DNA from: a virus
Taxonomy: Duplodnaviria > Caudoviricetes
Length of the DNA: 64,000 nucleotides
IMG/VR virus record: IMGVR_UViG_3300037010_001838
Strand: one strand, 5' to 3'
This document shows positions 906 through 25,495 of this stretch, in pieces. A program made the position numbers and the translations under genes. How positions within the stretch are numbered: the stretch's first letter is position 1; every line of letters starts with the position of its first letter. The notes beneath the pieces are model-generated. The model did no database searches and had not been told where the DNA came from. It worked only from the letters and a program-made list of their open reading frames with translations.

Positions 906-990
906 ACCACTGTGGCCGATAGGTTAGGCACAGGACCGATAATCCTGGAGGGAAACCTCGAAGTTGGTTCGATTCCAACCGGTGGTACCA
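906..990 (+). tRNA. tRNA-Ile(GAT) with long variable arm
   Basis: cagga-ccGATaa-tcctg; 15-nt variable region gagg-gaaa-cctc-gaa; acceptor accactg/cggtggt; A73; CCA. Confidence 0.85.
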
Positions 991-1084
991 AATCAACACC
1001 GTCAAATAGCATTCGGTCTGCTATACCGAAGATGACGAAAGGGTGTGTACAACCTGACAGTAGTAGCGTGTTGTTTTAACTTTT

Positions 1085-1164
1085 GGGTGTGGGGACTGCA
1101 TGGCGTGGTCACCGGACTGTCACTTCGGAAAATCAGGAGGGTTCAATTCCCTTCACACCCGCCA
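1085..1164 (+). tRNA. tRNA-Asp(GTC)
   Basis: ccgga-ctGTCac-ttcgg; acceptor gggtgtg/cacaccc; G73; CCA. Confidence 0.88.
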
Positions 1165-1172
1165 AAAATTAT

Positions 1173-1244
1173 CTCTCATCTAGGGGAACTAGCTTATTGA
1201 CTACGAATCAATTCTGGATCGTTCAACTCGGTCATGGGGGGCCA
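1173..1244 (+). tRNA. atypical tRNA-Arg(ACG)
   Basis: attga-ctACGaa-tcaat; T arm gatcg-ttcaact-cggtc; acceptor ctctcat/atggggg; short D region; CCA. Confidence 0.6.
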
Positions 1245-1324
1245 ACATCATAAACAAATGTTGATATTAGTCTTTGTATTCAATACAATACAATGAGAGA
1301 ACAAACTTTTAAAGATTATTAACT

Positions 1325-1594
1325 ATGTCTAACACATTAAGACACAAAGAGAAGAATAAATCCAAAAGAGCAATACGTCAATATCGGGAAGATACAGATT
1401 GCTCTACCGAACACCCGTTTTGGATAGGTAAAGAAGAATTGGAAAACCCTGAACTGTTAAACATATTATACGATTTTTTGAATAAACCAGGGACTCGGCA
1501 TGGAAACAAAAGACGCTTTGAAGCATACATGAAGTGGAAAAAACGAAAGAAACAAAGAATTAAGTTAAACAAATTAGTTGATGAAATAGAATAA
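1325..1594 (+). CDS. hypothetical basic protein
   Basis: 89-aa K/R-rich ORF between tRNAs. Confidence 0.55.
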   Translation: MSNTLRHKEKNKSKRAIRQYREDTDCSTEHPFWIGKEELENPELLNILYDFLNKPGTRHGNKRRFEAYMKWKKRKKQRIKLNKLVDEIE

Positions 1595-1599
1595 TTATT

Positions 1600-1683
1600 G
1601 GAAGATGAACTGTTCTGGTGTTCAGGTTCGTTTGCTAAACGAAACGCTCCGCAAGGGGTGGGGTCCGATTCCTCCGTCTTCCG
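1600..1683 (+). tRNA. tRNA-Ser(GCT), no encoded CCA
   Basis: ttcgt-ttGCTaa-acgaa; long variable arm ctcc-gcaa-gggg; acceptor ggaagat/gtcttcc; followed by CCT. Confidence 0.88.
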
Positions 1684-1840
1684 CCTGGCACGCAAGATAG
1701 ATATACCGGTTGTCTCTAGTTGGAAATGATGTGAAAAATATTTGTGCACAAATATTGTAGCACGTTTTCATTAACTTTTATGCCGCCAAATTATAAATAT
1801 TCGTTTAATTAAAACACTTTAAAGTAATGCACCTTTATTC

Positions 1841-1912
1841 CCCCTTGCCAATGGAGTGGTGGGACGCCTTCTAAGCGACCTTATGCCTGTTCGATTCAGG
1901 CCAAGGGGACCA
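1841..1912 (+). tRNA. tRNA-Arg(TCT)
   Basis: cgc-ctTCTaa-gcg; T arm gcctg-ttcgatt-caggc; acceptor ccccttg/caagggg; CCA. Confidence 0.8.
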
Positions 1913-2246
1913 ATACACAATTCTGTGTATTTCTGTAGTACAAATACAACAATGGGGTTTTAGTGTAAACGTGAAAGCACGAGTCAACAGACGAAGAAAA
2001 AAGTCCACAACTTTTTATATCCCACCCCAAAAAAGGAATTTTATCATGAACGTTAAAGAGTTAGTGAAAGACCAAACTGTACATTTTCAGTTTTGAATTA
2101 TGGTATAAAACAAATAATGGATTTGAATTTCCTGTTCCAGTATCAGACACAGGGGATGGAGTATTTAACGATTCCGACAAAGCAATATTGTTTATGCGTT
2201 ACATTAGAAAACATTTAGATAATATTGAACAAGGGAAAATTAACAA

Positions 2247-2678
2247 TTAACCTTTTGTAAAATAATATAGTTCTTTGGTTTTAAACGTTTCCTTATACAT
2301 TTTCCACCCTGGAACTTTAATAGATTGAGCCATTCGGTTGTATAATTTTACTCTGGATGGTTCATCTAATTTTGCAGAAAAGAAGAACGTAACAACTTTT
2401 GGATATAATTCAATCCATTTTTTAATACACTGGATAACAGCAGCCATAACTTGAGAAGCATTTCCGGAACCCGTTATTCCGTGTGACGTTTGATTTCCTT
2501 TTTGAGCACGGAATGCAACGTTCCAAACCTGATTTCCTTTGTCATCATTCGTTTGTGTCTCATAAGCATGGAAAACATATTCCATCTCCCCAACCACGAA
2601 AAACATTTTACATTCCTCATATGTTTTAACGTCAACATGTATTTCTACACTCGAATTAAAAATCTCATTCAATCTCAT
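2247..2678 (-). CDS. hypothetical protein with MRLNEIF N-terminus (possible head-internal protein)
   Basis: Start at second Met; late-type cATAAATA at 2709-2702 on - strand. Confidence 0.65.
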   Translation of the reverse strand: MRLNEIFNSSVEIHVDVKTYEECKMFFVVGEMEYVFHAYETQTNDDKGNQVWNVAFRAQKGNQTSHGITGSGNASQVMAAVIQCIKKWIELYPKVVTFFFSAKLDEPSRVKLYNRMAQSIKVPGWKMYKETFKTKELYYFTKG

Positions 2679-3035
2679 TTCATGTCCCAATCGTTATATA
2701 ATATTTATGTTGTCTTTTAACATTAGTGTAAGTATGATGTCGATATAGCAATTTTAGGATAAATCATGAACCAAGGAACTAAAACGTGGGTTAGTACAAA
2801 GACAAAGATGCTGTCGGTGACCATTACGTAATTATGGAATTTTCGTCGAGAACTATACCTGGACTGGTGTGATAAGTTTTTCTTTGGGATGGCTTGGACA
2901 TAACTTATATGTGTATAATACAACACTGAACACCATGGCGCGGTAGCTTCACAAGAATGTGATTCAGTGTGAAAAAGACCTTCCAAGGAACCAACACTGC
3001 ATTGCAACAATAATTATTACGCCAGGAAAAATCAA

Positions 3036-3395
3036 ATGAGAAAGAATGACTTGATTAAAATGTTAACAGAACTTGAAGGCAATCCTGAAGTCGTGTTGTG
3101 GAATGGTATGGTCGGCGATTATATGCACATCGATTCCAAATTCATTGAAGGAAGTTTAGTTAGAATGACATTCGAAAATTACATGAAACAGTGTCAATTT
3201 GAAGAAGGTAGACACCAAAATAACATGAACTTTCAATTTACACCTGAAGAGGTTAAAGAACTGAAAAATTCTTACAAAAGATATGTTGATTGGGAAGACG
3301 ATGCATACGTTACTGACAAGGATATTGCTGAAAAACGATATAGCAGCAAACGAGTTGTATATATCAATTCAAAGCCTCGAGGTATTACATCTTGA
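3036..3395 (+). CDS. hypothetical protein (TGA stop possibly premature)
   Basis: 119-aa ORF with SD; frame stays open for 8 more codons (DRLGSIEY) after TGA. Confidence 0.6.
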   Translation: MRKNDLIKMLTELEGNPEVVLWNGMVGDYMHIDSKFIEGSLVRMTFENYMKQCQFEEGRHQNNMNFQFTPEEVKELKNSYKRYVDWEDDAYVTDKDIAEKRYSSKRVVYINSKPRGITS

Positions 3396-3495
3396 GACCG
3401 CCTTGGAAGTATAGAGTATTAATATACACTTAAAGAAAATTTAAATGGTGCTCAAAAGTATACAACCGATATGTAACTATAACAGGTGACCCAGA

Positions 3496-3783
3496 ATGAA
3501 CATTTTTGATAAACGTTGGTTAAATGCACGCAAATTCACTGAAAAGGTTAATTCTATTATTTCTGAAAATGAAGACTGCTTTGTGTTTTTTGATGGAGAA
3601 TCGTTTGATGAAATTAAGATCGATGAAGAACATCGGGAAATTTTATTAGTCTCAACTAATTGTGTTGTGTGCATTTACAATGGCGATAAAGATTGCGATG
3701 AAGGTGCTCATACTACATCAAAAGAATGGTTAACGGACACAAAACAACGATTACAAATTTTCAAAGAAATTCAGATTGAGTAA
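3496..3783 (+). CDS. hypothetical protein
   Basis: 95-aa ORF in + strand run. Confidence 0.6.
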   Translation: MNIFDKRWLNARKFTEKVNSIISENEDCFVFFDGESFDEIKIDEEHREILLVSTNCVVCIYNGDKDCDEGAHTTSKEWLTDTKQRLQIFKEIQIE

Positions 3784-3794
3784 GGAATTTTAAC

Positions 3795-4204
3795 ATGACA
3801 CACAAAATAGCCATAATACACGTCGTTGGTGGGCATTGTAGAGACTACAATGATTATGACAATAAAATTGTTTCAAGTATTTCTGAATGGGAAGATGTAG
3901 ACGATGATACGTTTAATCTATTAGTTAACTCTACCAATCACTTAACAAATAATTATCAAATCATAGAACACGTTAAGACAGACGATATTTTTGTTATAAA
4001 AAATGTTAAACAGTATATTAAGATGGTTGAAGAACAAAAACGTCGAGAAGATGAGGCAGAAGTAGAACGGGCAAAAAAGCACAACTTCGAGCTCAAAAGG
4101 CAAAAGAACGAAAGTTACAAAAACTTAGAAAAGATAAAGAATCTAGGCGTTTATTGTTAGAACAACTTCAAAAAGAATTTAAAGTTGACACCAAAAAGGA
4201 ATAA
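3795..4204 (+). CDS. hypothetical protein; C-terminal coiled coil lies in the -1 frame after A_AAA_AAG
   Basis: 0 frame ends at 4160; -1 frame from 4079 reads AQLRAQKAKERKLQKLRKDKESRRLLLEQLQKEF and stops at 4204, just before the next ATG. Confidence 0.6.
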
Positions 4205-4206
4205 AA

Positions 4207-4413
4207 ATGGATAAGCGAAAAGTAAAACAAGCAGTAAAACCAGCACCAGTTCCAGGGATTTTTGAAAACCCGATAAATCAGGAGCGGTGGGAATGCAACG
4301 ACATCTATGACATTCGTTCAATCGACGGAGTTGAGTTTCTTCAAGTTCATAAGTATGGAAATGATAGAACAGTGTTAATGCGCAAAGATGCTTTAAAAAA
4401 GGTTAAGAAGTAA
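4207..4413 (+). CDS. hypothetical protein
   Basis: 68-aa ORF with SD. Confidence 0.65.
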   Translation: MDKRKVKQAVKPAPVPGIFENPINQERWECNDIYDIRSIDGVEFLQVHKYGNDRTVLMRKDALKKVKK

Positions 4414-4421
4414 GACTCTTT

Positions 4422-4497
4422 CTCGTCGAAGCCAAAGGGAAAGGCAATAGTTTCCTAAACTATTATTTTGTCAGTTCGAATCTGACCGACGGGACCA
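4422..4497 (+). tRNA. tRNA-Arg(CCT)
   Basis: atagt-ttCCTaa-actat; T arm gtcag-ttcgaat-ctgac; acceptor ctcgtcg/cgacggg; CCA. Confidence 0.9.
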
Positions 4498-4514
4498 ATT
4501 TATGGAGATGAAAA

Positions 4515-4802
4515 ATGAACAACGATATCAGATATACGACGTGTAAAAAATGTGGACAAGTTCATTTTAGTGTATCATTAGCATATGTTCAAAATATTGT
4601 TAACACTTTTAATGAATATTTCGATACACTATCGATTGAAGATCAACAAACATTATATAATGGACAAAGATCTTCAATAACTCCATATACAAAATGTGTT
4701 GTTTGTGGTAACCCATACACAAATTTTAAACTTTTTGAAAATAACGATTGCCCTTCTGGTGTAACTATTAATCCAATCTTGGAAAGGAATGAAAAACTAT
4801 GA
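4515..4802 (+). CDS. hypothetical protein with two CxxC motifs
   Basis: CKKC and CVVC; SD ggag. Confidence 0.6.
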   Translation: MNNDIRYTTCKKCGQVHFSVSLAYVQNIVNTFNEYFDTLSIEDQQTLYNGQRSSITPYTKCVVCGNPYTNFKLFENNDCPSGVTINPILERNEKL

Positions 4803-5017
4803 CTGAACAATTTATTATCAATGATAAAGAAGTAAATGTTAATTCGTTGGAGGTTGATGGAGTTGATTCTTTAGATTATCCTGATTTCTGTGATGCTTAT
4901 TTCTGTTCAGGTACGTTTGAAGATGGGTCAAATATGTCTGATGATGAATTGAATGAGTTTTCCGATAAATATGGGTATATTTTAAATGAAAAGGCCCATG
5001 AAAGCCTTCAAGGATAA
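4799..5017 (+). CDS. hypothetical acidic protein
   Basis: 72 aa; ATGA overlap; DYPDFCDAY motif. Confidence 0.65.
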   Translation: MTEQFIINDKEVNVNSLEVDGVDSLDYPDFCDAYFCSGTFEDGSNMSDDELNEFSDKYGYILNEKAHESLQG

Positions 5018-5166
5018 GTCAAATGGTAATTAAAACAACGTCTTTAAAAGCAATGGCAACCGTGATTCGGTTTTTACGTGGTAAAAATCATGTTTTATAT
5101 AATCACTTTATGATTATTGGAAACCAACACGCTTAATAATAAATACTCGAATAACCGAGAAAAATA

Positions 5167-5406
5167 ATGAAATTAAAACAATTGTTTGAAACTGAATTAT
5201 ATAAGTTTTATTGTTCAAAGTCCAATGGATTTATCACGAGTGCTGCTAGTCTTACACCAGAAGTGATTTCGACAATGAAGAAACATTCTGAAAAGACGGG
5301 ATACCCTGTCGAAGTAAAGAAAGATGGAAAGGTTGTTGGAAAGATTACGAAGAGTGGTATGGAAAAGTTGAATGAAAGTGAAATCACAAAAGGTAAGACA
5401 AAATAG
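5167..5406 (+). CDS. hypothetical protein with MKLKQLFE N-terminus
   Basis: Late-type ATAAATA at 5139-5145. Confidence 0.65.
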   Translation: MKLKQLFETELYKFYCSKSNGFITSAASLTPEVISTMKKHSEKTGYPVEVKKDGKVVGKITKSGMEKLNESEITKGKTK

Positions 5407-5638
5407 TTGTGTGAAGCTGCAACCCATTTAATGTCCGAAAGAGTGGAAGATACACAAGCGGATTTAGTAGACGAGTTTACTGAACTATCAAAAAAACATA
5501 GGAACCACGCCGACTTCGTACGCTTGAAAAACAATTTGACAGAGGTATGAGGGATTTCAAAAAGGATATGAAAAAGATGACGAAGATTTGAAAAAATCTA
5601 AAGATTATGAAGTTGCAACAGTTATCTGTAAACTTTTG

Positions 5639-5667
5639 TTGACTTTCATAAATAAGTCATATATACT
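5639..5667 (+). promoter_or_regulatory. sigma70-type promoter of the leader/tRNA operon
   Basis: TTGACT-17 nt-TATACT. Confidence 0.85.
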
Positions 5668-5703
5668 TATAACACTAACTTAACAAACTTAAAGAATTTA
5701 CAA

Positions 5704-5805
5704 ATGTTCGATTCAACAAAACCAATTTTTATCAATAATGTAAACGTTAATAATAAACGTTCACACGCTGAGGCATTGACTGTTGAAATCAAACTAATCA
5801 TCTGA
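5704..5805 (+). CDS. putative attenuator leader peptide (33 aa, MFDSTKPIFINNVNVNNKRSHAEALTVEIKLII)
   Basis: Short ORF between promoter and terminator; codon run atc aat aat gta aac gtt aat aat aaa; too short for the ORF track. Confidence 0.7.
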   Translation: MFDSTKPIFINNVNVNNKRSHAEALTVEIKLII

Positions 5806-5833
5806 AAGTAAACAAAAGTTAATAGGCCTCGGC
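5767..5833 (+). promoter_or_regulatory. antiterminator helix
   Basis: gctgaggc-attgact (5767-5781) pairs with agttaat (5817-5823) + gcctcggc (5826-5833); 15 bp, 2-nt bulge; competes with the terminator 5' strand. Confidence 0.75.
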
Positions 5834-5858
5834 AGAGAAATCTCCCGAGGCTTTTTTT
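5826..5858 (+). terminator. rho-independent terminator (attenuator)
   Basis: gcctcgg-c-aga-gaaa-tct-c-ccgaggc followed by T7. Confidence 0.9.
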
Positions 5859-5878
5859 ATGTTCTTTAAAAATTTAAT

Positions 5879-5952
5879 AGTCCCTTAACTCAATGGTAGA
5901 GTGCTGTCGTGACATGGCAGATACAGAAGTTCAATTCTTCTAGGGACTACCA
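5879..5952 (+). tRNA. tRNA-Val(GAC)
   Basis: ctgtc-gtGACat-ggcag; acceptor agtccct/agggact; CCA. Confidence 0.85.
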
Positions 5953-5965
5953 AAGTTTCACTTGC

Positions 5966-6050
5966 TCCGGTCGGACTGGCTTGGTGAAGGTCTCGCACTG
6001 TTAATGCGAAGGCTCCGAAAGGAGGCGAGGTTCGATTCCTCGGACCGGAG
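5966..6050 (+). tRNA. tRNA-Asn(GTT) with long variable arm, no encoded CCA
   Basis: tcgca-ctGTTaa-tgcga; 16-nt variable region with ctcc-gaaa-ggag; acceptor tccggtc/gaccgga; G73. Confidence 0.85.
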
Positions 6051-6065
6051 CAAGTGGAATTTAAT

Positions 6066-6140
6066 GGGGTGTTAGTGTCAGCGGAAGCACAGAAGACTTT
6101 TAATCTTTTAGGCTGGATTCGAATTCCAGGCGCCCTACCA
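6066..6140 (+). tRNA. tRNA-Lys(TTT)
   Basis: gaaga-ctTTTaa-tcttt; acceptor ggggtgt/gcgccct; CCA. Confidence 0.88.
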
Positions 6141-6149
6141 AAATATAAT

Positions 6150-6223
6150 GCACCGCAAGCATTAAGGTGATGCAATAGGCTCTTACCCTGTAGAACACGG
6201 CTCAATACCGTGGCGGTGTACCA
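6150..6223 (+). tRNA. tRNA-Lys(CTT)
   Basis: atagg-ctCTTac-cctgt; T arm cacgg-ctcaata-ccgtg; acceptor gcaccgc/gcggtgt; CCA. Confidence 0.8.
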
Positions 6224-6228
6224 TATTT

Positions 6229-6312
6229 CCATCCGACACCGAACTGGTACGGTACGAGACTTTTAATCTCGCGTCTTTGACTATGAGGGTTCGAATCCCT
6301 CCGGGTGGACCA
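6229..6312 (+). tRNA. tRNA-Lys(TTT) with long variable arm
   Basis: cgaga-ctTTTaa-tctcg; 13-nt variable region c-gtc-ttt-gac-tat; A73; CCA. Confidence 0.85.
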
Positions 6313-7121: not shown

Positions 7122-7198
7122 TGTCCCGTTAGCTCAGTTGGATAGAGCACTTGTGTGACATGCAATATACGGCAGTTCAATTCTGCCGGGGACTACCA
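7122..7198 (+). tRNA. tRNA-Val(GAC), imperfect acceptor
   Basis: ttgt-gtGACat-gcaa; canonical D/T arms; two acceptor mismatches; CCA. Confidence 0.65.
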
Positions 7199-7211
7199 AA
7201 GTTTCAAGTGT

Positions 7212-7324
7212 TCCAGTTGAGCCGCGGGGTGTGGCAGCGGACTGATGCAAAAGCCCCTTCTAACGAGGAGGCTTTGATTAATCCGTGACGAAAGTCTAGT
7301 TTGGTTCGACACCAAAAACTGGAG
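7212..7324 (+). tRNA. tRNA-Asn(GTT)-like gene with a 33-nt hairpin insertion (7245-7277) in the anticodon
   Basis: Acceptor tccagtt/aactgga+G73; D stem gcc/ggc; anticodon stem gcgga/tccgt; ctg[insert]ttaa = ctGTTaa; variable arm gac-gaaa-gtc; T arm tttgg-ttcgaca-ccaaa. Confidence 0.7.
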
Positions 7325-7341
7325 CAGTTGGAATTTTATAT

Positions 7342-7455
7342 GGAGGTCTAGCCTAGTGGATAGGCACCGGACTTATTCGAGCATCTGCGAAATCGGGTGT
7401 TCCTGTTAATCCGGACCGTAATGGTATAGCGTGAGTTCGAATCTCCGGGCCTCTA
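7342..7455 (+). tRNA. tRNA-Lys(TTT)-like gene with a 31-nt hairpin insertion (7375-7405) in the anticodon
   Basis: Acceptor ggaggtc/ggcctct+A73; D stem gcct/aggc; anticodon stem ccgga/tccgg; ctt[insert]ttaa = ctTTTaa; variable arm acc-gtaat-ggt; TTCGAAT T loop. Confidence 0.7.
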
Positions 7456-7466
7456 CCGAATTATTT

Positions 7467-7601: not shown

Positions 7602-8426
7602 TTGGTGAGAAGAAACAAGCAGTGTGATAAGTGTGGAGATTTAATCTCACTATCGAATATATCAAAACACGAGAAATCGTGTAATGGGACGGGTAAAACA
7701 AATAAACCAAAATTGTTATGTTGTCCGTATTGTAACATAAACTTGGCCGAACACTACCTAACTACACCCAGTCGCCGAGCAAATCACGTTAGGTGGTGTA
7801 TTGATAACCCAAAGCATGATGAATATATAGATAACCTTAACATTCACCTTGATAACGCACGTCGCACAGTAATATCCACCCCAGAAGAAGTTAAACGCCG
7901 GGCTTTACTTGTATCACAAAGACACAAAGAAGGTCGATATGAGCAAGCACACAAAGATAGAATAGGTAAAACAGGTAAAAAACATACCCCTGAGACAAAA
8001 GCAAGATTATCAAACATCAGAAAAGAATGGCTTAAAAACAATCCAGACAAACATCCGTGGAAACGTCCTGGAAAAAATATATCAAAACCTTGTGAAGATT
8101 TTAAACAGTTGTTAACAAATAATGAATATGAATATACGTCAGAATTTCAACCGTTGCAAACAAGATATTTCTCTATTGATATTGTATTCCCTCAGTATAA
8201 AGTAGGAATAGAAATAAACGGAAACCAGCACTACAACAGAGATGGTACACTGAAGACATATTACCAAAACAGGCATGATCTAATAGTAACTGATGGTTGG
8301 GTGTTGTTTGAATTGCCATATTATGAAGTATACAGTCAGGATTCAGTTGACATTATGATGTGTTTACTGGATAATCTACTTATATTAAATGGAAATAACC
8401 AGGCTCTTCTAAAGCCTCATTCGTGA
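7602..8426 (+). CDS. free-standing homing-type endonuclease (Zn fingers + NUMOD3-like motif + DUF559/Vsr-like nuclease)
   Basis: CDKC...HEKSC, CPYC; KKHTPETKARLS; IDIVFPQYKVGIEINGNQHY; GWVLFEL. Confidence 0.75.
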   Translation: MVRRNKQCDKCGDLISLSNISKHEKSCNGTGKTNKPKLLCCPYCNINLAEHYLTTPSRRANHVRWCIDNPKHDEYIDNLNIHLDNARRTVISTPEEVKRRALLVSQRHKEGRYEQAHKDRIGKTGKKHTPETKARLSNIRKEWLKNNPDKHPWKRPGKNISKPCEDFKQLLTNNEYEYTSEFQPLQTRYFSIDIVFPQYKVGIEINGNQHYNRDGTLKTYYQNRHDLIVTDGWVLFELPYYEVYSQDSVDIMMCLLDNLLILNGNNQALLKPHS

Positions 8427-8447
8427 TTCGATTCCACGGCGGGGCCA
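8374..8447 (+). pseudogene. tRNA-Arg(TCT) remnant overlapping the endonuclease 3' end
   Basis: aggct-ctTCTaa-agcct, TTCGATT loop, ggcgggg-CCA; 5' acceptor strand does not pair. Confidence 0.45.
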
Positions 8448-8457
8448 CTTACAACAC

Positions 8458-10934: not shown

Positions 10935-11504
10935 ATGTCACAAATCATATTTATAGACATCGACGGACCACTACTTCCACGTAGAGCTTGGTGTCTACCT
11001 GAAAATATTCAACTTTTAAATGAATCCCGAAAATCTGGAAATCATCCCTTTAGACACAAGGATTTACACAACATTGTTAAATTTGACCCAATTGCCGTCA
11101 GTTTCTTTAACACGTGGACAGAGAACAATGATGTTGTTGGAGTTATTTCATCAAACTGGTTTCATTATGCGTCTCGAGAACAAATTGAACTGACGTTCAA
11201 AAACAACAATTTGAAAATTCAGTTACACCAAAATTGGCACACACCAAGAGCCGGTGATGGTGGGAGAACTGAAGAAATAAAACGTTGGTTGGATGTTCAT
11301 TATGTTGACAATTTCATCATCGTTGATGATGACCCTGACTTAATAAGTCCGTCTGCTTCCATATTAATACCTGATATTGAATCACATCTACTTTATATAC
11401 AGTATGAGATTGGCTTGACATTGGAACACCACGCTCGGGCTTGTAACCTACTAAACGTGGATTTTTCCCATCAAGGATTACCGAAATTAACATATCAAAT
11501 ATAA
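10935..11504 (+). CDS. HAD-superfamily phosphatase (RNA-repair-associated type)
   Basis: IFIDIDGPL (DxD motif I), VISSNW (motif II), IIVDDD (motif IV). Confidence 0.75.
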   Translation: MSQIIFIDIDGPLLPRRAWCLPENIQLLNESRKSGNHPFRHKDLHNIVKFDPIAVSFFNTWTENNDVVGVISSNWFHYASREQIELTFKNNNLKIQLHQNWHTPRAGDGGRTEEIKRWLDVHYVDNFIIVDDDPDLISPSASILIPDIESHLLYIQYEIGLTLEHHARACNLLNVDFSHQGLPKLTYQI

Positions 11505-11511
11505 ATTAAAA

Positions 11512-12633
11512 GTGGAACATTTACACGATATTTATACCAAAAAAGGTGACACCTATTTGGATAATCTTTTGAATGATACTGTGGTTATCAACGTGAAGAT
11601 TGACCAGTGTGCATTTGTAATTAAGAAGAATGATGGAATATTTTCTTACCACGGAAGAGAAGGTCGTGGGGAAATTAATAACATAAAACGTTCAACGATG
11701 GACATTTATGAAGATTGCATTCATCATGTTGAGCCTCTTTTATCCAACAAAATTCCAGATAATTCTGAAATATATTTGGAATTGTTTAACGAAAAACTAA
11801 AAACTAAAGTCCAATATTCAACTAAACCCAAAAACAACTTAATATTGTCATATATTAATCAGAGTGGTTCTACACTATTACCAACTAACCCTGAAAATAA
11901 ACGTATTGCATCTCTATTAGACATTTCTGAACCTCCTGTGTTGTTCAGTGGAAAATTATCAGAAAACCAGAAAAAACAAATTAAATCATTTGTTATAACG
12001 TCAGCAGAAGAACGAAAACACAAATATGGTGGAAAAGAGTTTATAGAATATATTATGTCTATATTCAAAACACCAGAACATTTAAGTTGGTTACACGAAG
12101 GGGGATATGAGGGGCTTGTATTTTACTTTGAAAACAATAAATGTTCTGCAAAACTTGTGGACCCACTGTTTACTTCAGATAAACAAGAAGAACGATATAA
12201 TGAAATGAGTGACTTTAAGAAACTGTTAACGGATATTATATTTCAACATTTAGAAGAGGACGTGGATCTATGTATAAAACATACTACATTCTCACTAGAC
12301 GAAACCACAGATGACACTTTTATTTACTTTATATCAAGATTAACGTTGTTAATGTGTATGATACACAGTGAAGAACTTAAAAACCTTAACCAATTTATGT
12401 TAGTTCAAAAGGAGCAACGTTTTTCTAACATAACGTATTCACTTCTTCCGTTGTTTATGGGTCCATTAATTAATAATTATCATTGGTGGGCTGAAGAATT
12501 ATACATCACTCTTGCCAATCTTTTACAAAAAGAAAAGAAAAGAATAAATATAAAACAAGGGTTAACACAAGAGCGAAAAGAAACTATTAATAGAATAGTT
12601 TCAGTGCTTCGTGAACAAGGAATAGTGAAATGA
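11512..12633 (+). CDS. ATP-dependent ligase-fold protein (divergent, RNA-ligase-like)
   Basis: VKIDQ (KxDx, motif I), IYLELF (III), EGLVF (IV), AKLVD (V). Confidence 0.5.
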   Translation: MEHLHDIYTKKGDTYLDNLLNDTVVINVKIDQCAFVIKKNDGIFSYHGREGRGEINNIKRSTMDIYEDCIHHVEPLLSNKIPDNSEIYLELFNEKLKTKVQYSTKPKNNLILSYINQSGSTLLPTNPENKRIASLLDISEPPVLFSGKLSENQKKQIKSFVITSAEERKHKYGGKEFIEYIMSIFKTPEHLSWLHEGGYEGLVFYFENNKCSAKLVDPLFTSDKQEERYNEMSDFKKLLTDIIFQHLEEDVDLCIKHTTFSLDETTDDTFIYFISRLTLLMCMIHSEELKNLNQFMLVQKEQRFSNITYSLLPLFMGPLINNYHWWAEELYITLANLLQKEKKRINIKQGLTQERKETINRIVSVLREQGIVK

Positions 12634-13415
12634 TAAAGACGTTTAAACAGTATCTCATTGAAGAAGGACAAGAATATGATTTATTTGTGGGACGATTCCA
12701 ACCGTTCCACAAAGGGCACACTTCTATAATTGAATCTATGAAGAATCCTATAATCGCAGTTATTAGAGGCAAAAAATCTTCAGAAGATAAAGTTAACAAT
12801 CCATTATCGTTTAAACAACAAAAATCGTTAATACATGAAGTATTTCCTTCTGCAATTGTAATCGAAGTAATGAACGCTAACTTAAATGGAATGTTGTTTC
12901 ATTTAAAAAACGAAGGAAAACAAATTCGTGCAATTTATGCTGGTGAAGATAGAATTAAGCGATATAGAGAAATTGTTGAAGAAAGTAACAAAAAGACAGG
13001 ATTGAATATTCAAGTAAAACAAACACCCCGAATTACATCCGCAACAGATGTAAGAGAAGCAATTCGGTCGAATAATTTCGAAGAATATATACAGTTAATG
13101 CCTATGCAATTAGCTAATGAAGACACATTTATGAAATTACAATCATCTATGCTAATCGAACAACGAAATTCAGAATATCGTGCTTGGTCTGATATGAACG
13201 ATAGAGTAAAACTACGCCGGAAAGAATCAAGAGAAGAAGTAGAACAACGTGTAATTAAACAAATGCAAGACAGTAGAAGAGCGGCGGAACAAGAACGACT
13301 TAAAAGGGAATTAGAAGTTCACAAAACGGCTTTATCAAAAACAAAGCCTGGAACTCCTGCTCACGAAATAATCAAAAAGAAAATTGCACAACATGAACAA
13401 AAAATGAATAGTTAA
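12630..13415 (+). CDS. cytidyltransferase-like HIGH nucleotidyltransferase
   Basis: GRFQPFHKGH, NPLSF, YAGEDR, TSATDVR; N-terminal KTFKQYLIEE. Confidence 0.8.
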   Translation: MIKTFKQYLIEEGQEYDLFVGRFQPFHKGHTSIIESMKNPIIAVIRGKKSSEDKVNNPLSFKQQKSLIHEVFPSAIVIEVMNANLNGMLFHLKNEGKQIRAIYAGEDRIKRYREIVEESNKKTGLNIQVKQTPRITSATDVREAIRSNNFEEYIQLMPMQLANEDTFMKLQSSMLIEQRNSEYRAWSDMNDRVKLRRKESREEVEQRVIKQMQDSRRAAEQERLKRELEVHKTALSKTKPGTPAHEIIKKKIAQHEQKMNS

Positions 13416-13463
13416 CTGTTCATTTTTTGTTTGTAAATACAATCAACGACAAACAAAGCAAAC

Positions 13464-13712
13464 ATGAACACACGCCTATTAACAGACTTAATCACAGACT
13501 TAATTGAGTCTATCAAGAACAACGACGATTATATGTCAAAATCACGAAAGTTCAATGAACTGGCACGATATATTGGTCCAGTTGAGTTAAATGGTCTTCG
13601 TGAAGCATGGGGATACTTTGAAGCTCCAAGTTCTATGGTATATTCATATGCGTTTGACGACACTTTCGATTATCTCCTCCAAAAATATAAGGGTATACAA
13701 ATTAGCAGTTGA
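13464..13712 (+). CDS. hypothetical protein
   Basis: 82-aa ORF. Confidence 0.5.
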   Translation: MNTRLLTDLITDLIESIKNNDDYMSKSRKFNELARYIGPVELNGLREAWGYFEAPSSMVYSYAFDDTFDYLLQKYKGIQISS

Positions 13713-13755
13713 CATTTCTTCGTTTGAGGGGTAAGGTATTATCGCATTATTAACT

Positions 13756-14097
13756 ATGATAATACTCTCTATGAAAACCCACACATTACGAAAATCAAAA
13801 ACACCAGGGCGTAAAATTCTTACGTTCACGCCCGGTTTTGTAGAAACAATCGTTGAAGCCCATCCTTGGGCAGCGCGGGCCTTTATTGGTTGTGTTCTCG
13901 AAGAGATTGACGCGTCTCTTGATATGGATCAACAACTTTTATTAACAGAACGAATTAAACCAATACCCACAACATCTTACGAACAACACACGACACTACA
14001 CTGGTTACAACAAGGTATACGTGTTCTTGATACTACATTACCAGTTTTATTATCAACACTGGATTTTGCTGCAAAAAGGATCTTTGGTGAAAATTGA
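13756..14097 (+). CDS. hypothetical protein
   Basis: 113-aa ORF after TTGACA-type promoter at about 13709. Confidence 0.55.
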   Translation: MIILSMKTHTLRKSKTPGRKILTFTPGFVETIVEAHPWAARAFIGCVLEEIDASLDMDQQLLLTERIKPIPTTSYEQHTTLHWLQQGIRVLDTTLPVLLSTLDFAAKRIFGEN

Positions 14098-14731
14098 TTT
14101 TAAAAGAACGTGCCCAATTAAGTTATTCCCAATTATTACAGTACTAAACGCATTTTCTGACAACAATTACGTTGTGGGGGGAGCGACTCGTGATTTGTTG
14201 ATGGGAAAAACTCCAAATGATTACGACATCGTTACGGATATCCCAATGAAACGGTTAATCGAACTGTTTGAAGACGGTGGATTTGAAGTGTCTTTGACTG
14301 GTGTCGCACACTTTGTGCTTAACGTCCATTTCAGTAGTTATACCGTTGAAGTCAGCAATTTCCGAAAAGATGTGGTATGTGATGGTCGCCACGCGGAAGT
14401 TGAATTGGGAACAATCGATGATGATGCTCACCGTCGCGATTTTACCGTAAACGCGTTATACATTAACACCAAAACGATGGAGCTTATTGACCCAACTGGT
14501 ATGGGGATGGACGATATTAAAACGAGAACGTTACGTTTTGTTGGAAAACCCAAAGACCGTATCAAAGAAGACTACTTGAGGGTAATCCGTTTTTACAGAT
14601 TTGTTGGCCGTGGATTTACTCCAGACCCGAAATCTTTAAAGGCTTGTCGAGAAATGTTCAACGAAGCATACACCAGTGTCGCAGCCGAACGCGTTCGGGT
14701 TGAAATTGAAAAAATCGTTGGGATTGATTAG
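14087..14731 (+). CDS. cca: tRNA nucleotidyltransferase (CCA-adding/poly(A) polymerase family), compact
   Basis: VVGGATRDLL, DYDIVT, RRDFTVNAL, EDYLRVIRFYRF; GTG start after SD aagga. Confidence 0.85.
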   Translation: MKIDFKRTCPIKLFPIITVLNAFSDNNYVVGGATRDLLMGKTPNDYDIVTDIPMKRLIELFEDGGFEVSLTGVAHFVLNVHFSSYTVEVSNFRKDVVCDGRHAEVELGTIDDDAHRRDFTVNALYINTKTMELIDPTGMGMDDIKTRTLRFVGKPKDRIKEDYLRVIRFYRFVGRGFTPDPKSLKACREMFNEAYTSVAAERVRVEIEKIVGID

Positions 14732-14775
14732 GAAGAATAATGAAAAAAACACAAATTTAGTATTAACCGAATAAA

Positions 14776-14952
14776 ATGAAATGTCCTAATTGTGGAGCTG
14801 CGTTTGTTTTTAGGAACAAAAACTTAACAGTTAATACGTATACAACAGATGAACAATCTATTAATGTTATCATTAAATGTACAATCTGTTATCACAGATA
14901 TCAAATACCTATTTCAATTGACGACGGTATTGATTTAGATGAAGGGAAATAA
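14776..14952 (+). CDS. small zinc-ribbon protein
   Basis: MKCPNCG...KCTICYH, 58 aa (below ORF-track cutoff). Confidence 0.55.
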   Translation: MKCPNCGAAFVFRNKNLTVNTYTTDEQSINVIIKCTICYHRYQIPISIDDGIDLDEGK

Positions 14953-14953
14953 A

Positions 14954-15166
14954 ATGGAATGTGAAGAACACCGAGAACAAGTATCAAAGTTTTTTGAACA
15001 AGATGACCCCGAGTTAGTCGGTAATCTCTCCGAAGCGTTATATGCGATGGATGAATTTGGTCTGTGGCCTGATGATGTAACTGTAAGTGAAGAACAAGCT
15101 ATTACATGTTGGGCGGTCGTGGAAAAATTACGAAAAAAGAAGTTTCCAAAAAAACTAGTAATGTAG
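14954..15166 (+). CDS. hypothetical protein
   Basis: 70-aa ORF. Confidence 0.5.
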   Translation: MECEEHREQVSKFFEQDDPELVGNLSEALYAMDEFGLWPDDVTVSEEQAITCWAVVEKLRKKKFPKKLVM

Positions 15167-15169
15167 TCG

Positions 15170-15198
15170 TTGACCCTTATGTCTTCATGATGTATAAT
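15170..15198 (+). promoter_or_regulatory. sigma70-type promoter
   Basis: TTGACC-17-TATAAT. Confidence 0.8.
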
Positions 15199-15229
15199 TT
15201 TATTTGATATAAAATTTGGGGTTTACATC

Positions 15230-25360: not shown

Positions 25361-25368
25361 GATATTAT

Positions 25369-25457: not shown

Positions 25458-25495
25458 CCCTCCGGAACAACTTTATTTAATATTGGAGAAGTAAA

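What the first reader, a model, noticed from the sequence alone, without database searches (positions are those of the whole stretch)
906..6312. Class-I anticodons (Ile GAT, Asn GTT, Lys TTT) on long-variable-arm tRNA bodies
Seen in sequence: Ile (906-990, 15-nt arm), Asn (5966-6050, 16-nt arm) and Lys (6229-6312, 13-nt arm) carry stem-loop variable arms, as do both insert-bearing tRNAs. Three of these five arms end in a GAAA tetraloop. Established knowledge: in bacteria long arms mark Ser, Leu, Tyr and Sec tRNAs; SerRS reads the long arm, and LeuRS uses A73 without reading the anticodon. Inference: these tRNAs may be charged with Ser or Leu (missense decoding), or the arm may shield them from host anticodon nucleases.
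Basis: partly seen in the sequence, partly recalled or inferred. Interest (0 to 1): 0.7.

Follow-up and report, generated by a model that had tools for sequence, protein, structure and literature searches.

The report
Long-armed phage Ile, Asn, Lys tRNAs
Three tRNA genes of an uncultured T4-like phage carry the extra hairpin arm that bacterial textbooks reserve for serine, leucine and tyrosine tRNAs, yet keep the marks of normal isoleucine, asparagine and lysine tRNAs, and such genes turn out to be widespread in phages, so they most likely decode normally.

Summary
ARAGORN and Rfam call Ile(GAU) 906-990, Asn(GUU) 5966-6051 and Lys(UUU) 6229-6312 as 84-86-nt tRNAs with 15-, 16- and 13-nt hairpin variable arms.

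They are not isolated oddities. A 98%-identical relative also has long-armed Cys, Glu and Lys(CUU) tRNAs. IMG/VR holds over 100 long-armed Asn(GUU) and 100 Lys(UUU) genes, and bacterial tRNA arrays hold some too. In a 15-member Asn subfamily all five arm pairs covary.

Missense charging is unlikely:
- Discriminator bases follow the anticodon's amino acid.
- Long-armed Asn keeps the Asn-type U1-A72, not the G1-G2 of Ser.
- Ile lacks the A15-U48 pair found in 96-99% of phage tRNA-Leu.
- Lys has C1-G72.
- With the arm left out, the Lys tRNA scores best as tRNA-Lys; Ile and Asn are ambiguous.
- The codons concerned make up about 17% of phage codons.

My reading is cognate, working tRNAs. A nuclease-shielding role for the arm is untested; the support is only circumstantial (class-I twins of the same anticodon, RNA-repair genes nearby).

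Separately, the CCA-less Asn gene sits on a covarying leader-trailer helix of more than 20 bp.

This scan has reported long-armed phage tRNA-Asn before on other DNA. I found no paper describing the class.

The parts
906..990 (+). tRNA-Ile(GAU), 85 nt, with a 7/5 acceptor/T branch, A73, encoded CCA and anticodon loop CCGAUAA (C33)
   Evidence: ARAGORN score 114.4 and Rfam tRNA 49.5 bits. Homologues with the same arm layout but different stems are in L506, L358, L045, L046 and L118.
948..962 (+). Variable arm of tRNA-Ile: a 4-bp stem GAGG/CCTC, a GAAA tetraloop and 3 unpaired bases (GAA) on the 3' side
   Evidence: The arm alone folds at -6.4 kcal/mol. Relatives have GATC/GATC, GTGA/TCAC, GTGT/ACAC and AAGGG/TCCTT stems at the same place.
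5966..6051 (+). tRNA-Asn(GUU), 86 nt, with U1-A72, C2-G71, G73, no encoded CCA and the D loop GGCTTGGTGAA
   Evidence: ARAGORN score 115.9. It belongs to a 15-member subfamily from different viral contigs in which U1-A72, G73 and the loop CUGUUAA never vary.
6010..6025 (+). Variable arm of tRNA-Asn: 3 unpaired bases (AGG), a 4-bp stem CTCC/GGAG, a GAAA tetraloop and 1 unpaired G
   Evidence: It folds at -5.9 kcal/mol. All 5 arm pairs show changes on both sides across the subfamily, with 97% of cells paired and 0 of 500 shuffles reaching the observed values for the whole structure.
5953..5965 (+). 5' leader strand of a helix that prolongs the Asn acceptor stem
   Evidence: It pairs with 6050-6062. 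The fold of 5950-6068 gives -59.9 kcal/mol and z = -6.6. The same stalk, built from different sequences, is in L378/L395 and L399 (10 bp or more), and a shorter one (about 5-6 bp, read by eye) in L377.
6050..6062 (+). 3' trailer strand of the same helix; it begins with G73-C-A
   Evidence: All stalked members lack CCA, and none of the 11 CCA-encoding members has a stalk.
6229..6312 (+). tRNA-Lys(UUU), 84 nt, with C1-G72, A73, encoded CCA and loop CUUUUAA
   Evidence: ARAGORN score 103.9 and Rfam tRNA 50.5 bits. With the arm and anticodon masked it scores best against the class-I Lys profile: 37.0 bits, against 29.2 for Tyr.
6272..6284 (+). Variable arm of tRNA-Lys: C, a 3-bp stem GTC/GAC, a TTT loop and 3 unpaired bases (TAT)
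   Evidence: The motif GTC-NNN-GAC-NNN joined to a GGGTTCGAATCCC T arm occurs in 23 phage tRNA-Tyr, 5 tRNA-Leu and the 82-nt tRNA-Asn of Erwinia phage Cronus. On its own the arm is weak (-0.6 kcal/mol).
6066..6140 (+). Class-I twin: an ordinary 75-nt tRNA-Lys(UUU) in the same operon
   Evidence: ARAGORN. The same order, Lys(UUU) short, Lys(CUU), Lys(UUU) long, is in the distant jumbo-phage contig L358.
7211..7324 (+). Second Asn-type gene, with a long arm (GAC-GAAA-GTC), a 33-nt insert in the anticodon loop and a similar leader-trailer stalk
   Evidence: Sequence, ARAGORN with introns allowed and fold. It is the subject of another finding.
7342..7457 (+). Second Lys-type gene, with a long arm (GTAA loop) and a 31-nt insert in the anticodon loop
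   Evidence: Rfam tRNA 31.1 bits and ARAGORN with introns allowed. It is the subject of another finding.
14021..14731 (+). Phage gene for a CCA-adding / poly(A) polymerase head-domain protein (context: the Asn gene has no CCA)
   Evidence: Pfam PolyA_pol E = 3e-29. NCBIfam CCA tRNA nucleotidyltransferase models reach E = 4e-32, but below their cut-offs.
10935..11504 (+). HAD domain protein of the 'Swiss Army Knife' RNA-repair type (context)
   Evidence: Pfam HAD_SAK_2 E = 1.9e-16, above the cut-off.

Best explanation
These are working elongator tRNAs of a large uncultured T4-like phage. I infer that the host's IleRS, AsnRS and LysRS charge them with the cognate amino acid. [quoted passage not shown] The tRNAs then read AUY, AAY and AAR codons, which are among the most used codons of this AT-rich phage.

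The extra hairpin is a class-II-style variable arm on a standard 7/5 tRNA. It belongs to a widespread but apparently undescribed habit of phage and tRNA-array tRNAs, in which the link between arm type and amino acid is loose in both directions. Long-armed Asn, Lys, Thr, Cys, Met, Trp and Ile occur, and so do short-armed Leu.

In some lineages the arm was probably inherited from a Tyr- or Ser-type ancestor gene whose anticodon, discriminator and first pair were switched. The tRNA-Asn of phage Cronus shows this. In other lineages a hairpin may have been gained in a class-I body; the window's Lys scores best as Lys.

What is shown: gene anatomy, conservation, covariation and isotype-consistent identity marks. 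What is inferred: cognate charging, use on the ribosome, and any benefit of the arm.
For: - Anatomy: cloverleaves with high scores.
- Covariation: 21 of 26 pairs of the Asn subfamily change on both sides, including all 5 arm pairs, while the anticodon loop, G73 and U1-A72 never vary.
Their arms fold far better than shuffles (-2.9 against -0.7 kcal/mol, and -2.4 against -0.6).
- Discriminator bases follow the isotype where my pattern did not fix them: Cys U73 15/15, Trp G73 10/10, Ile(UAU) A73 23/23, Lys(CUU) A73 12/12.
- U1 is present in 75% of long and 76% of short Asn, against 5% of Ser and 4% of Tyr.
- Masked-body profile test, with 40-95% cross-validated accuracy: the window's Lys scores best as Lys. 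The window's Ile and Asn have no Ser or Leu profile among their three best scores, though Tyr ties for second in Asn.
- Published identity rules: Asn and Lys identity is the anticodon plus G73 or A73, and Asn identity can be transplanted into a tRNA-Lys (PMC9976931).
- The codons read by the three tRNAs make up about 171 per 1000 in the window's ORFs. AAA ranks 1st, AUU 4th and AAU 7th.
- Origin: the 82-nt tRNA-Asn of phage Cronus matches phage tRNA-Tyr genes in the D, variable and T arms. It differs at position 36, position 73 and the 1-72 pair.
Against: - No charging, expression or modification data exist. No RNA run holds the region.
- The host is unknown, so the identity rules are borrowed from E. 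coli and other model systems.
- The window's Asn is the riskiest case for SerRS. It has G73, and a 4-bp GAAA arm with a single unpaired 3' base, which is the Ser-type offset. The phage's own tRNA-Ser(UGA) also has only a 4-bp GAAA arm.
- Asn also lacks U8/A14 and an encoded CCA, and it is locked in a leader-trailer helix. Its maturation is therefore not standard.
- Ile has C33 instead of the near-universal U33.
- The bodies of Ile and Asn are not clearly Ile-like or Asn-like in the profile test.
- About half of the long-armed Asn and Lys genes elsewhere have class-II-like bodies.
Confidence: 0.62

Rival explanations
1. The arm is adaptive. It makes these phage tRNAs poor substrates for host tRNA-cutting defences such as PARIS AriB, PrrC or RloC, or for a tRNase the phage itself brings, while charging stays cognate. 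The phage therefore carries a resistant long-armed copy beside an ordinary one. This is compatible with the best explanation and adds a function for the arm.
For: - A class-I twin with the same anticodon is present with 23% of long-armed Asn and 32% of long-armed Lys(UUU). Background duplication is about 8.5% (odds ratios 3.2 and 4.9, P = 1e-5 and 8e-9).
- The window itself has Lys(UUU) in both a short and a long version.
- AriB cuts E. coli tRNA-Lys(UUU), Thr(UGU) and Asn(GUU) between positions 40 and 41, on the strand that leads into the variable region. Phage T5 variants of these tRNAs neutralise PARIS (PMC12409363).
- Phage tRNA-Lys rescues phage from PrrC (PMC11555353).
- RNA-repair and CCA-adding genes lie next to the tRNA cluster.
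- Phages with one long-armed class-I tRNA tend to have several. For example Thr(UGU) is long in 26% of cases in the Asn-selected set, against 6% in background.
Against: - There is no nuclease data of any kind.
- In the near-random sample long arms are not concentrated on the known nuclease targets. Gln, Pro, Lys, Thr and Asn all lie at 4-7% on small numbers.
- Positions 39-41 show no consistent difference between long and short versions.
- T5's protective tRNA-Asn is an ordinary 78-nt tRNA, so resistance does not need an arm.
- One subfamily member (L388) has lost the arm and otherwise looks intact.
Confidence: 0.2
2. The arm is a neutral relic. These genes descend from class-II tRNA genes (Tyr, Ser, Leu) by anticodon shift plus identity switch, or they picked up a hairpin by accident. 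The arm is kept as a tidy hairpin only because an unstructured insert would harm folding. Charging is cognate and the arm does nothing.
For: - The Cronus Asn matches phage Tyr genes closely.
- The relative's Cys(GCA) is 73% identical to its Ser(UGA) and shares its anticodon stem, arm and T arm, but has U73.
- About half of the long-armed Asn and Lys bodies score best as Tyr, Ser or Leu.
- Most of the long-armed types seen (Asn, Thr, Ile, Met, Cys, Trp) are one anticodon base away from a class-II anticodon (my inference from the code table).
- L388 lost the arm without other visible change.
- E. coli LeuRS does not need the arm (PMC9976931), and short-armed Leu is common in phages, so arm state can drift.
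Against: - The arm persists, with compensatory changes and length changes of 4-6 bp, across a diverged subfamily.
- Twins are over-represented.
- The window's Lys has a Lys-like body, which argues for gain rather than inheritance.
- Other one-step neighbours of class-II anticodons (Ala, Gly, Arg, Phe, His, Asp) are rarely long-armed.
Confidence: 0.3
3. Mischarging. SerRS charges the G73 long-armed Asn(GUU), or LeuRS or TyrRS charges the A73 long-armed Ile and Lys. The result is deliberate or tolerated missense decoding.
For: - SerRS identity rests mainly on the long arm and G73 and ignores the anticodon, and LeuRS ignores the anticodon (PMC9976931).
- The window's Asn has G73 and the Ser-type single 3' spacer base.
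- The window's Lys has A14, A15-U48 and A73, as tRNA-Leu does, and a Tyr-type arm.
- Nematode nev-tRNAs (PMC3333845) and allo-tRNAs (PMC5389517) show that such missense tRNAs exist in nature.
Against: - The Asn subfamily has invariant U1-A72 and mostly C2-G71. G1-C72 and G2-C71 are conserved in bacterial tRNA-Ser, and 79% of phage Ser start GGA.
- The anticodon loop is invariant, which is hard to explain if the charging enzyme ignores it.
- Ile has U15-A48, not the A15-U48 of 96-99% of phage Leu.
- A15-U48 with A73 is also found in 52% of ordinary phage tRNA-Lys, so it does not mark Leu identity.
- Lys has C1-G72, the reverse of the bacterial Tyr pair G1-C72 (PMC9976931).
- About 17% of all codons would be affected.
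Confidence: 0.07
4. The RNAs do not decode. They, or at least the stalked CCA-less Asn, act as tRNA look-alikes: decoys for nucleases, sponges for host factors, or regulators.
For: - Asn has no CCA, has an unusual core without U8/A14 and is clamped in a helix of more than 20 bp.
- Two neighbouring paralogues carry hairpin inserts in the anticodon loop.
- Some allo-tRNAs are charged but not used in translation (PMC5389517).
Against: - Eleven of the 17 listed subfamily genes (18 with the window's own copy) encode G73-CCA with no stalk and look like plain tRNAs.
- The anticodon GUU and the 7-nt loop never vary.
- Ile and Lys encode CCA and have standard cores.
- All three sit in operons with ordinary tRNAs.
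Confidence: 0.08

Closest known systems
Bacterial and phage class II tRNA-Tyr(GUA)
   Same: The acceptor/T branch is 7/5. The variable arm is short: 3-4 bp, a 3-4-nt loop and about 3 unpaired bases on the 3' side. The window's Lys arm (C, GTC-TTT-GAC, TAT) has the motif found in 23 phage tRNA-Tyr genes. Cronus tRNA-Asn is visibly a Tyr-type gene.
   Different: The anticodons are GAU, GUU and UUU. Asn has G73 and U1-A72 instead of A73 and G1-C72. Lys has C1-G72. With the arm masked, the window's Lys scores best as Lys rather than Tyr.
Allo-tRNAs (Mukai et al. 2017, PMC5389517)
   Same: They have long variable arms combined with anticodons for amino acids other than Ser, Leu or Tyr. They occur on mobile elements and in metagenomes.
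   Different: Allo-tRNAs are defined by an 8/4 or 9/3 acceptor/T branch, and mostly carry Ser identity (G73 or U73). The three tRNAs here are 7/5 and carry isotype-matched identity marks.
Nematode nev-tRNAs (Hamashima et al. 2012, PMC3333845)
   Same: They are class-II-shaped tRNAs whose anticodons belong to class-I amino acids (Gly, Ile).
   Different: They are eukaryotic, Leu-type molecules decoding an alternative code for leucine. Here the acceptor and discriminator marks follow the anticodon, so cognate charging is expected.
Nuclease-resistant phage T5 tRNA-Lys(UUU), Thr(UGU) and Asn(GUU) variants that defeat PARIS (PMC12409363, PMC11464382)
   Same: They are phage copies of the same isoacceptors, kept in tRNA clusters, in a phage that also invests in tRNA repair.
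   Different: T5 resistance comes from point changes in the anticodon stem (positions 39 and 41). T5 tRNA-Asn and tRNA-Lys are class-I sized at 78 nt. No role of a variable arm has been shown.
Annotated 82-nt tRNA-Asn-GTT of Erwinia phage Cronus (MH059636.2, Straboviridae)
   Same: It is a cultured T4-like phage with a long-armed tRNA-Asn(GUU), G73 and CCA. Its arm, GTC-TAT-GAC-AAT, is nearly that of the window's Lys.
   Different: It is a different isotype from the Lys it resembles, and a different arm layout from the window's Asn (no unpaired base before the 3-bp stem and 3 after it, against 3, a 4-bp stem and 1). The record annotates it without comment.

Membership tests
Canonical elongator tRNA (Rfam RF00005, 7/5 cloverleaf) | A 7-bp acceptor stem, a 5-bp T stem, a TTCRANY T loop and GG in the D loop | tested here: met
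   ARAGORN structures for all three. Rfam gives 49.5 bits for Ile and 50.5 for Lys. Asn appears only as a sub-threshold tRNA-Sec-like hit at 33 bits.
Canonical elongator tRNA (Rfam RF00005, 7/5 cloverleaf) | A 7-nt anticodon loop with U33 and a purine at position 37 | tested here: inconclusive
   Asn (CUGUUAA) and Lys (CUUUUAA) meet it. Ile has C33 (CCGAUAA). C33 occurs in 60 of 3138 phage tRNAs, several of them Ile(GAU).
Canonical elongator tRNA (Rfam RF00005, 7/5 cloverleaf) | The U8-A14 core pair and the 15-48 Levitt pair | tested here: inconclusive
   Lys has A8, A14 and A15-U48. Ile has U8, A14 and U15-A48. The Asn subfamily has invariant G8, G14 and C15 with G48.
Class II (long variable arm) tRNA architecture | A variable region of 10 nt or more that forms a stem-loop | tested here: met
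   The regions are 15, 16 and 13 nt, with stems of 4, 4 and 3 bp. Covariation supports the Asn arm.
Class II (long variable arm) tRNA architecture | In bacteria, restricted to Ser, Leu, Tyr and Sec anticodons | tested here: not met
   The anticodons are GAU, GUU and UUU.
tRNA-Ser identity set (bacterial SerRS) | G1-C72 and G2-C71 in the acceptor stem | tested here: not met
   Asn has U1-A72 and C2-G71, Ile has A1-U72 and C2-G71, and Lys has C1-G72 and C2-G71. Of phage Ser tRNAs, 79% start GGA. The rule is from PMC9976931.
tRNA-Ser identity set (bacterial SerRS) | G73, and a long arm of Ser geometry (typically 5-7 bp with 1 unpaired 3' base) | tested here: inconclusive
   Asn has G73, 4 bp and 1 unpaired 3' base, so it is close to the Ser type. 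Ile and Lys have A73 and 3 unpaired 3' bases, so they are not.
tRNA-Leu identity set (E. coli-type LeuRS) | A73 with A14 and the A15-U48 Levitt pair | tested here: inconclusive
   Ile has A73 but U15-A48, so it does not meet it. Asn has G73, so it does not meet it. Lys meets it, but so do 52% of ordinary phage tRNA-Lys. Phage Leu has A15-U48 in 96-99% of cases.
Bacterial tRNA-Tyr identity | A73, G1-C72 and G34-U35 in the anticodon | tested here: not met
   Lys has A73 and U35, but C1-G72 and U34. Ile has A35. Asn has G73 and U1-A72. The rule is from PMC9976931.
tRNA-Asn, tRNA-Lys and tRNA-Ile identity (class IIb AsnRS and LysRS; IleRS) | The cognate anticodon plus the discriminator: G73 for Asn, A73 for Lys and Ile | tested here: met
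   All three carry the right pair. Actual charging cannot be tested with these tools.
Allo-tRNA | An 8/4 or 9/3 acceptor/T branch | tested here: not met
   All three are 7/5. The extra pairs at Asn are leader-trailer pairs that include G73.
tRNA-Sec | An 8/5 branch, a UCA anticodon and an Rfam RF01852 score above 47 bits | tested here: not met
   Asn scores 33 bits, below the gathering score, and its anticodon is GUU.

The most novel reading that the evidence does not exclude
The long arm is a self-mark. In this phage lineage a whole second set of tRNAs (Ile, Asn, Lys, Cys, Glu and others) is built with a Tyr-type extra arm. The aim would be that host tRNA-cutting defences, or a tRNase the phage itself deploys against host tRNAs, cannot grip the anticodon stem near positions 40-41. 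The cognate synthetases would still charge them. The stalked, CCA-less Asn gene would be released and completed only by phage-controlled processing, that is a double-strand cut followed by the phage's own CCA-adding enzyme.
Probability: 0.15. Interest if true: 0.85.

Novelty: new variant of a known kind. Interest (0 to 1): 0.5.

Why it matters
Textbooks and tRNA-identity reviews tie the long variable arm in bacteria to Ser, Leu, Tyr and Sec. Here, and in hundreds of phage contigs and bacterial tRNA arrays, the arm sits on Asn, Lys, Ile, Thr, Cys, Met and Trp tRNAs that keep their own identity marks. Many phage Leu tRNAs, conversely, have lost it.

- If charging is cognate, AsnRS, LysRS and IleRS tolerate a large extra domain. 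That bears on tRNA engineering and on annotation, because isotype models and Rfam score these genes poorly.
- If the arm protects against tRNA-targeting immunity such as PARIS or PrrC, it would be a structural mode of counter-defence, distinct from the point changes known in phage T5.
- The covarying leader-trailer stalk around the CCA-less Asn genes points to a maturation route that is unusual for bacterial-type tRNAs.

Tried and rejected
- BLAST of the region and of each tRNA against GenBank phages found no close relative. The only useful hit was the match of the Lys arm to Cronus tRNA-Asn.
- My first Ile census pattern (GATAA...) was unspecific and mostly hit ordinary tRNAs. I reused those loci as a near-random background sample.
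- All-against-all comparison inside the phage found no recent paralogue for Ile, Asn or Lys (at most 69% identity). Only Cys resembles Ser, at 73%.
- A comparison of anticodon-stem positions 39-41 between long and short Lys, Asn and Thr gave no consistent difference.
- Sequencing runs: no RNA holder is listed. The DNA holders are microbial-mat and sediment metagenomes.
- Laying contigs of four runs gave strain variants in the flanks. Among the 40 best-supported sites shown, none lay inside the three genes, but 109 sites were not shown, so I draw no conclusion.
- The 373-aa ORF at 11512-12633 looked to me like an RNA ligase. It matched nothing convincing in Pfam, PHROGs or PDB sequences, and only a far sub-threshold, irrelevant NCBIfam family.
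- Literature searches found no description of 7/5 long-armed Asn, Lys or Ile tRNAs. This covers only the open-access library searched.
- Allo-tRNA and tRNA-Sec membership were considered and rejected (see the membership test).
- The genome-contig scan is expected to yield about 200 chance matches by my own estimate. Only 37 of its 120 loci held a real long-armed tRNA-Asn.

Full report
**What the window is.** The window comes from an uncultured T4-like phage. It encodes rIIA (PHROG E = 2e-105), a helicase and tail-fibre-like proteins and has 36% G+C. No cultured phage is close: the best rIIA match is under 32% identity. An IMG/VR record of 178.8 kb, G001, is 98% identical over the tRNA region; I fetched it in pieces. 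DNA runs holding the region come from microbial-mat and sediment metagenomes, and no RNA run is listed. The host is unknown.

**The observation.** ARAGORN tRNAs in the window. Three of them are long:
- Ile(GAU) 906-990, 85 nt.
- Asn(GUU) 5966-6051, 86 nt.
- Lys(UUU) 6229-6312, 84 nt.

Their drawn structures have a normal 7-bp acceptor stem, a 5-bp T stem, a TTCGA T loop, GG in the D loop and a 7-nt anticodon loop. Each also has a variable region of 15, 16 or 13 nt:
- Ile: GAGG-GAAA-CCTC followed by GAA.
- Asn: AGG, then CTCC-GAAA-GGAG, then G.
- Lys: C, then GTC-TTT-GAC, then TAT.

Rfam's tRNA model scores Ile at 49.5 and Lys at 50.5 bits. Asn surfaces only as a sub-threshold tRNA-Sec-like match of 33 bits.

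**The whole phage does this.** In G001 plus the window, 6 of 37 tRNAs with class-I anticodons have a variable region of 10 nt or more. Besides the three, these are Cys(GCA) at 86 nt, Glu(UUC) at 87 nt and Lys(CUU) at 84 nt. Two further insert-bearing Asn- and Lys-type genes at 7211-7324 and 7342-7457 also have long arms. In the other direction, the phage has a 77-nt, short-armed Leu(UAG). GAAA also caps the arms of the phage's own Leu and Ser tRNAs, so the tetraloop is not special to the odd genes.

**Census in public viral contigs.** It yielded 117 ARAGORN tRNA-Asn(GUU) genes with arms of 10 nt or more. The matching Lys(UUU) pattern yielded 100. A GATAA pattern for Ile was unspecific, so I used its loci, with two other unrelated sets, as a near-random background. 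In that background:
- Long arms occur in 3/68 Asn, 3/52 Lys(UUU), 3/54 Thr(UGU) and 0/46 Ile(GAU).
- The overall rate is about 2.6% of class-I-anticodon tRNAs.
- Ile(UAU) is an outlier at 10/26.
- 30-60% of Leu genes are short-armed.

The window phage's 6 of 37 is therefore enriched (P = 4e-4). Long-armed Ile(GAU) is rare but real: 5 of 62 in the Asn-selected loci, and five more from a T-arm-specific scan. Long-armed Asn(GUU) also occurs in bacterial genomes, mostly inside dense tRNA arrays in Mycobacterium, Micromonospora, Verrucosispora and Planctomycetaceae. A cultured T4-like phage, Erwinia phage Cronus, carries an annotated 82-nt tRNA-Asn-GTT. T5's tRNA-Asn and tRNA-Lys are ordinary 78-nt genes.

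**Are the arms real structure?** Variable regions of long-armed Asn and Lys fold much better than their shuffles: -2.9 against -0.7 kcal/mol, and -2.4 against -0.6. Most form a 3-4-bp stem with a tetraloop, and GAAA is the commonest loop.

For the window's Asn I found its own subfamily through the D-loop motif GGCTWGGTGAA: 27 contigs, 15 distinct sequences aligned. On that alignment 96.9% of cells pair, and 21 of 26 pairs change on both sides. All five arm pairs change on both sides, with 97% of cells paired. None of 500 shuffles, and no slid register, comes close. Arm stems include CTCC/GGAG, CCCC/GGGG, ATGCA/TGCAT, CGCAA/TTGCG and CTCGCA/TGCGGG. U1-A72, G73 and the loop CUGUUAA never vary. 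One member, L388, has a plain 5-nt loop instead of the arm.

For Ile, homologues in L506, L045, L046 and L118 share the window's layout: no 5' spacer, 4 bp and 3 unpaired 3' bases. Their stems are GATC/GATC, GTGA/TCAC and GTGT/ACAC. L358 has 5 bp.

The Lys arm is weak on its own (-0.6 kcal/mol). Its motif, GTC-NNN-GAC-NNN before a GGGTTCGAATCCC T arm, is that of 23 phage tRNA-Tyr genes and of Cronus tRNA-Asn.

**Who charges them?** I could test only sequence marks, using the published identity rules (PMC9976931).
- Discriminator bases of long-armed tRNAs follow the anticodon's isotype wherever my patterns left them free: Cys U73 15/15, Trp G73 10/10, Ile(UAU) A73 23/23, Lys(CUU) A73 12/12.
- Long-armed Asn has U1 in 75% of genes and UCC as the commonest start, exactly like short Asn (76%). 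Ser has U1 in 5% and Tyr in 4%. The window's Asn starts UCC, while the phage's Ser tRNAs start GGA.
- Arm geometry separates the classes. Ser has 5-7 bp and 1 unpaired 3' base. Leu has 2. Tyr has 3 bp and 3. Long-armed Asn, Lys, Thr, Met, Cys and Trp have 3-4 bp and 3-4. The window's Ile and Lys fit the Tyr-like class.
- The window's Asn, with 4 bp and 1 unpaired 3' base, is closer to Ser. This is the main caveat.
- Phage tRNA-Leu, long or short, has A15-U48 in 96-99% of genes. The window's Ile has U15-A48. The window's Lys has A15-U48, but so do 52% of ordinary phage tRNA-Lys.
- The window's Lys has C1-G72, the reverse of the bacterial Tyr determinant.
- I built profile HMMs of tRNA bodies with the anticodon and arm masked. 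Cross-validated accuracy was 40-95% against a chance level of 5%. The window's Lys scores best as Lys (37.0 bits, against 30.2 for short-armed Leu and 29.2 for Tyr). Ile and Asn are ambiguous. No Ser or Leu profile is among their three best, though Tyr ties for second in Asn.
- Across IMG/VR about half of the long-armed Asn and Lys bodies score best as Tyr, Ser or Leu, which fits descent from class-II genes.
- The codons these three tRNAs read make up about 171 per 1000 codons of the window's ORFs. Systematic missense there would touch every protein.

**Origin.** Cronus tRNA-Asn aligns with phage tRNA-Tyr genes through the D, variable and T arms. It differs at exactly the identity positions: A36 to U, A73 to G, and G1-C72 to U1-A72. 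The relative's Cys(GCA) shares its anticodon stem, arm and T arm with its Ser(UGA) but has U73. Recruitment of class-II genes by anticodon shift plus identity switch is thus documented in relatives. For the window's three genes no recent donor is visible.

**Does the arm do something?** This remains open. The circumstantial points are:
- Long-armed Asn and Lys(UUU) genes are accompanied by a class-I copy with the same anticodon 3-5 times more often than other anticodons are duplicated.
- The window and the distant jumbo contig L358 share the order Lys(UUU) short, Lys(CUU), Lys(UUU) long.
- Phages with one long-armed class-I tRNA tend to have several.
- HAD_SAK_2 and CCA-adding-type genes lie downstream.
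- PARIS AriB cuts Lys(UUU), Thr(UGU) and Asn(GUU) at 40/41 (PMC12409363).

Against this, the background sample shows no clear isotype bias. Positions 39-41 do not differ between long and short versions. T5 achieves resistance without an arm.

**A separate feature of the Asn gene.** Its 5' leader (5953-5965) pairs perfectly with its 3' trailer (6050-6062), G73 included. This prolongs the acceptor stem to more than 20 bp (z = -6.6). Stalked relatives have stalks built from quite different sequences: L378/L395 and L399 with 10 bp or more, and L377 with a shorter one read by eye. All end ...GC before the tRNA and begin GCA after it, and all lack CCA. None of the 11 members that encode CCA has a stalk. 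The insert-bearing paralogue at 7211-7324 has a similar stalk. This looks like a double-strand processing stalk followed by CCA addition, but no cleavage evidence exists.

**Comparison with what is known, and novelty.** These are not allo-tRNAs, which are 8/4 or 9/3 (PMC5389517), and not tRNA-Sec. They are not the eukaryotic Leu-type nev-tRNAs (PMC3333845). They work like ordinary Ile, Asn and Lys tRNAs on a class-II-shaped frame. I found no paper describing such 7/5 long-armed class-I-identity tRNAs in phages in the library searched. Earlier reports of this scan had already noted long-armed phage tRNA-Asn on other DNA, and my census confirms independently that the design is common.

**Verdict.** Missense charging is unlikely, at about 7%. 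Cognate, working tRNAs is the best reading, at about 0.6. An adaptive shielding role for the arm is possible, at about 0.2, and is directly testable.

Noticed in passing
window 5950-6068, and 7196-7342; relatives L378:6878-7000, L399:3392-3507, L377: The CCA-less tRNA-Asn is enclosed by a perfect leader-trailer helix that prolongs the acceptor stem to more than 20 bp. Relatives have the same stalk built from different sequences, always ...GC|tRNA|GCA.... Members that encode CCA have none. It may be a double-strand processing stalk.
   Followed up: partly
window 10935-15643: A cluster of RNA-repair and maturation-type genes lies just after the tRNA operons. It holds HAD_SAK_2 (10935-11504), a cytidylyltransferase-like gene (12630-13415), a CCA-adding / poly(A) polymerase head domain (14021-14731) and a weak 2H-SAK match (15230-15643). 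The 373-aa ORF at 11512-12633 has no match.
   Followed up: partly
window 906-990 (position 938): tRNA-Ile(GAU) has C33 in place of the near-universal U33. Across 3138 phage tRNAs C33 occurs 60 times, repeatedly in Ile(GAU). The homologues L358 and L506 have U33.
   Followed up: partly
window 5966-6051 and alignment A1: The Asn subfamily has an unusual core. G8, G13, G14, C15 and G48 never vary (C15:G48 instead of G15:C48), there is no U8/A14, and the D loop is the 11-nt GGCTWGGTGAA. The 80-nt Asp(GUC) at 1085-1164 and the relative's Ala(UGC) have a similar D arm.
   Followed up: no
L011:17912-17988 (relative G001), and IMG/VR loci: Short-armed, class-I-shaped tRNA-Leu genes are common in phages: 30-60% of Leu genes in the sample. 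They keep A73 and A15-U48. This is the mirror image of the finding.
   Followed up: partly
L358 (IMGVR_UViG_3300032254_000001, 344 kb): A distant jumbo-phage contig carries paired short and long versions of Lys(UUU), Ile(GAU), Met(CAU) and Gln(UUG). It also has long-armed Glu, Thr(UGU) and Ile(UAU). The Ile(UAU) arm loop reads CAGAUUA, which contains GAU.
   Followed up: partly
window 7122-7457: A second module of Val(GAC), an Asn-type gene and a Lys-type gene repeats the order at 5879-6140. Here the Asn- and Lys-type genes each carry a 31-33-nt hairpin inside the anticodon loop as well as a long variable arm.
   Followed up: partly
window 7602-8450: A 274-aa ORF with weak HNH/NUMOD3 matches ends inside what looks like the 3' two-thirds of a tRNA-Arg(UCU): anticodon arm, T arm and acceptor 3' strand, at about 8400-8450. 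I found no matching 5' acceptor strand in the first 12 kb.
   Followed up: partly
window 25368-25460: ARAGORN draws an isolated 93-nt tRNA-Ser(CGA) with an 8-bp acceptor stem and a 4-bp T stem. It might be an (8/4) Ser tRNA of the kind reported in phages, or a 7/5 tRNA with one mismatch.
   Followed up: no
L545, L563, L576, L543, L567 and other genome-contig loci: Long-armed tRNA-Asn(GUU) genes sit in dense arrays of 18-36 tRNA genes within 8 kb in Mycobacterium, Verrucosispora, Micromonospora, Thermoguttaceae and Planctomycetaceae genomes. A few MAG contigs carry a solitary one with the arm GTCC-GAAA-GGAC.
   Followed up: no
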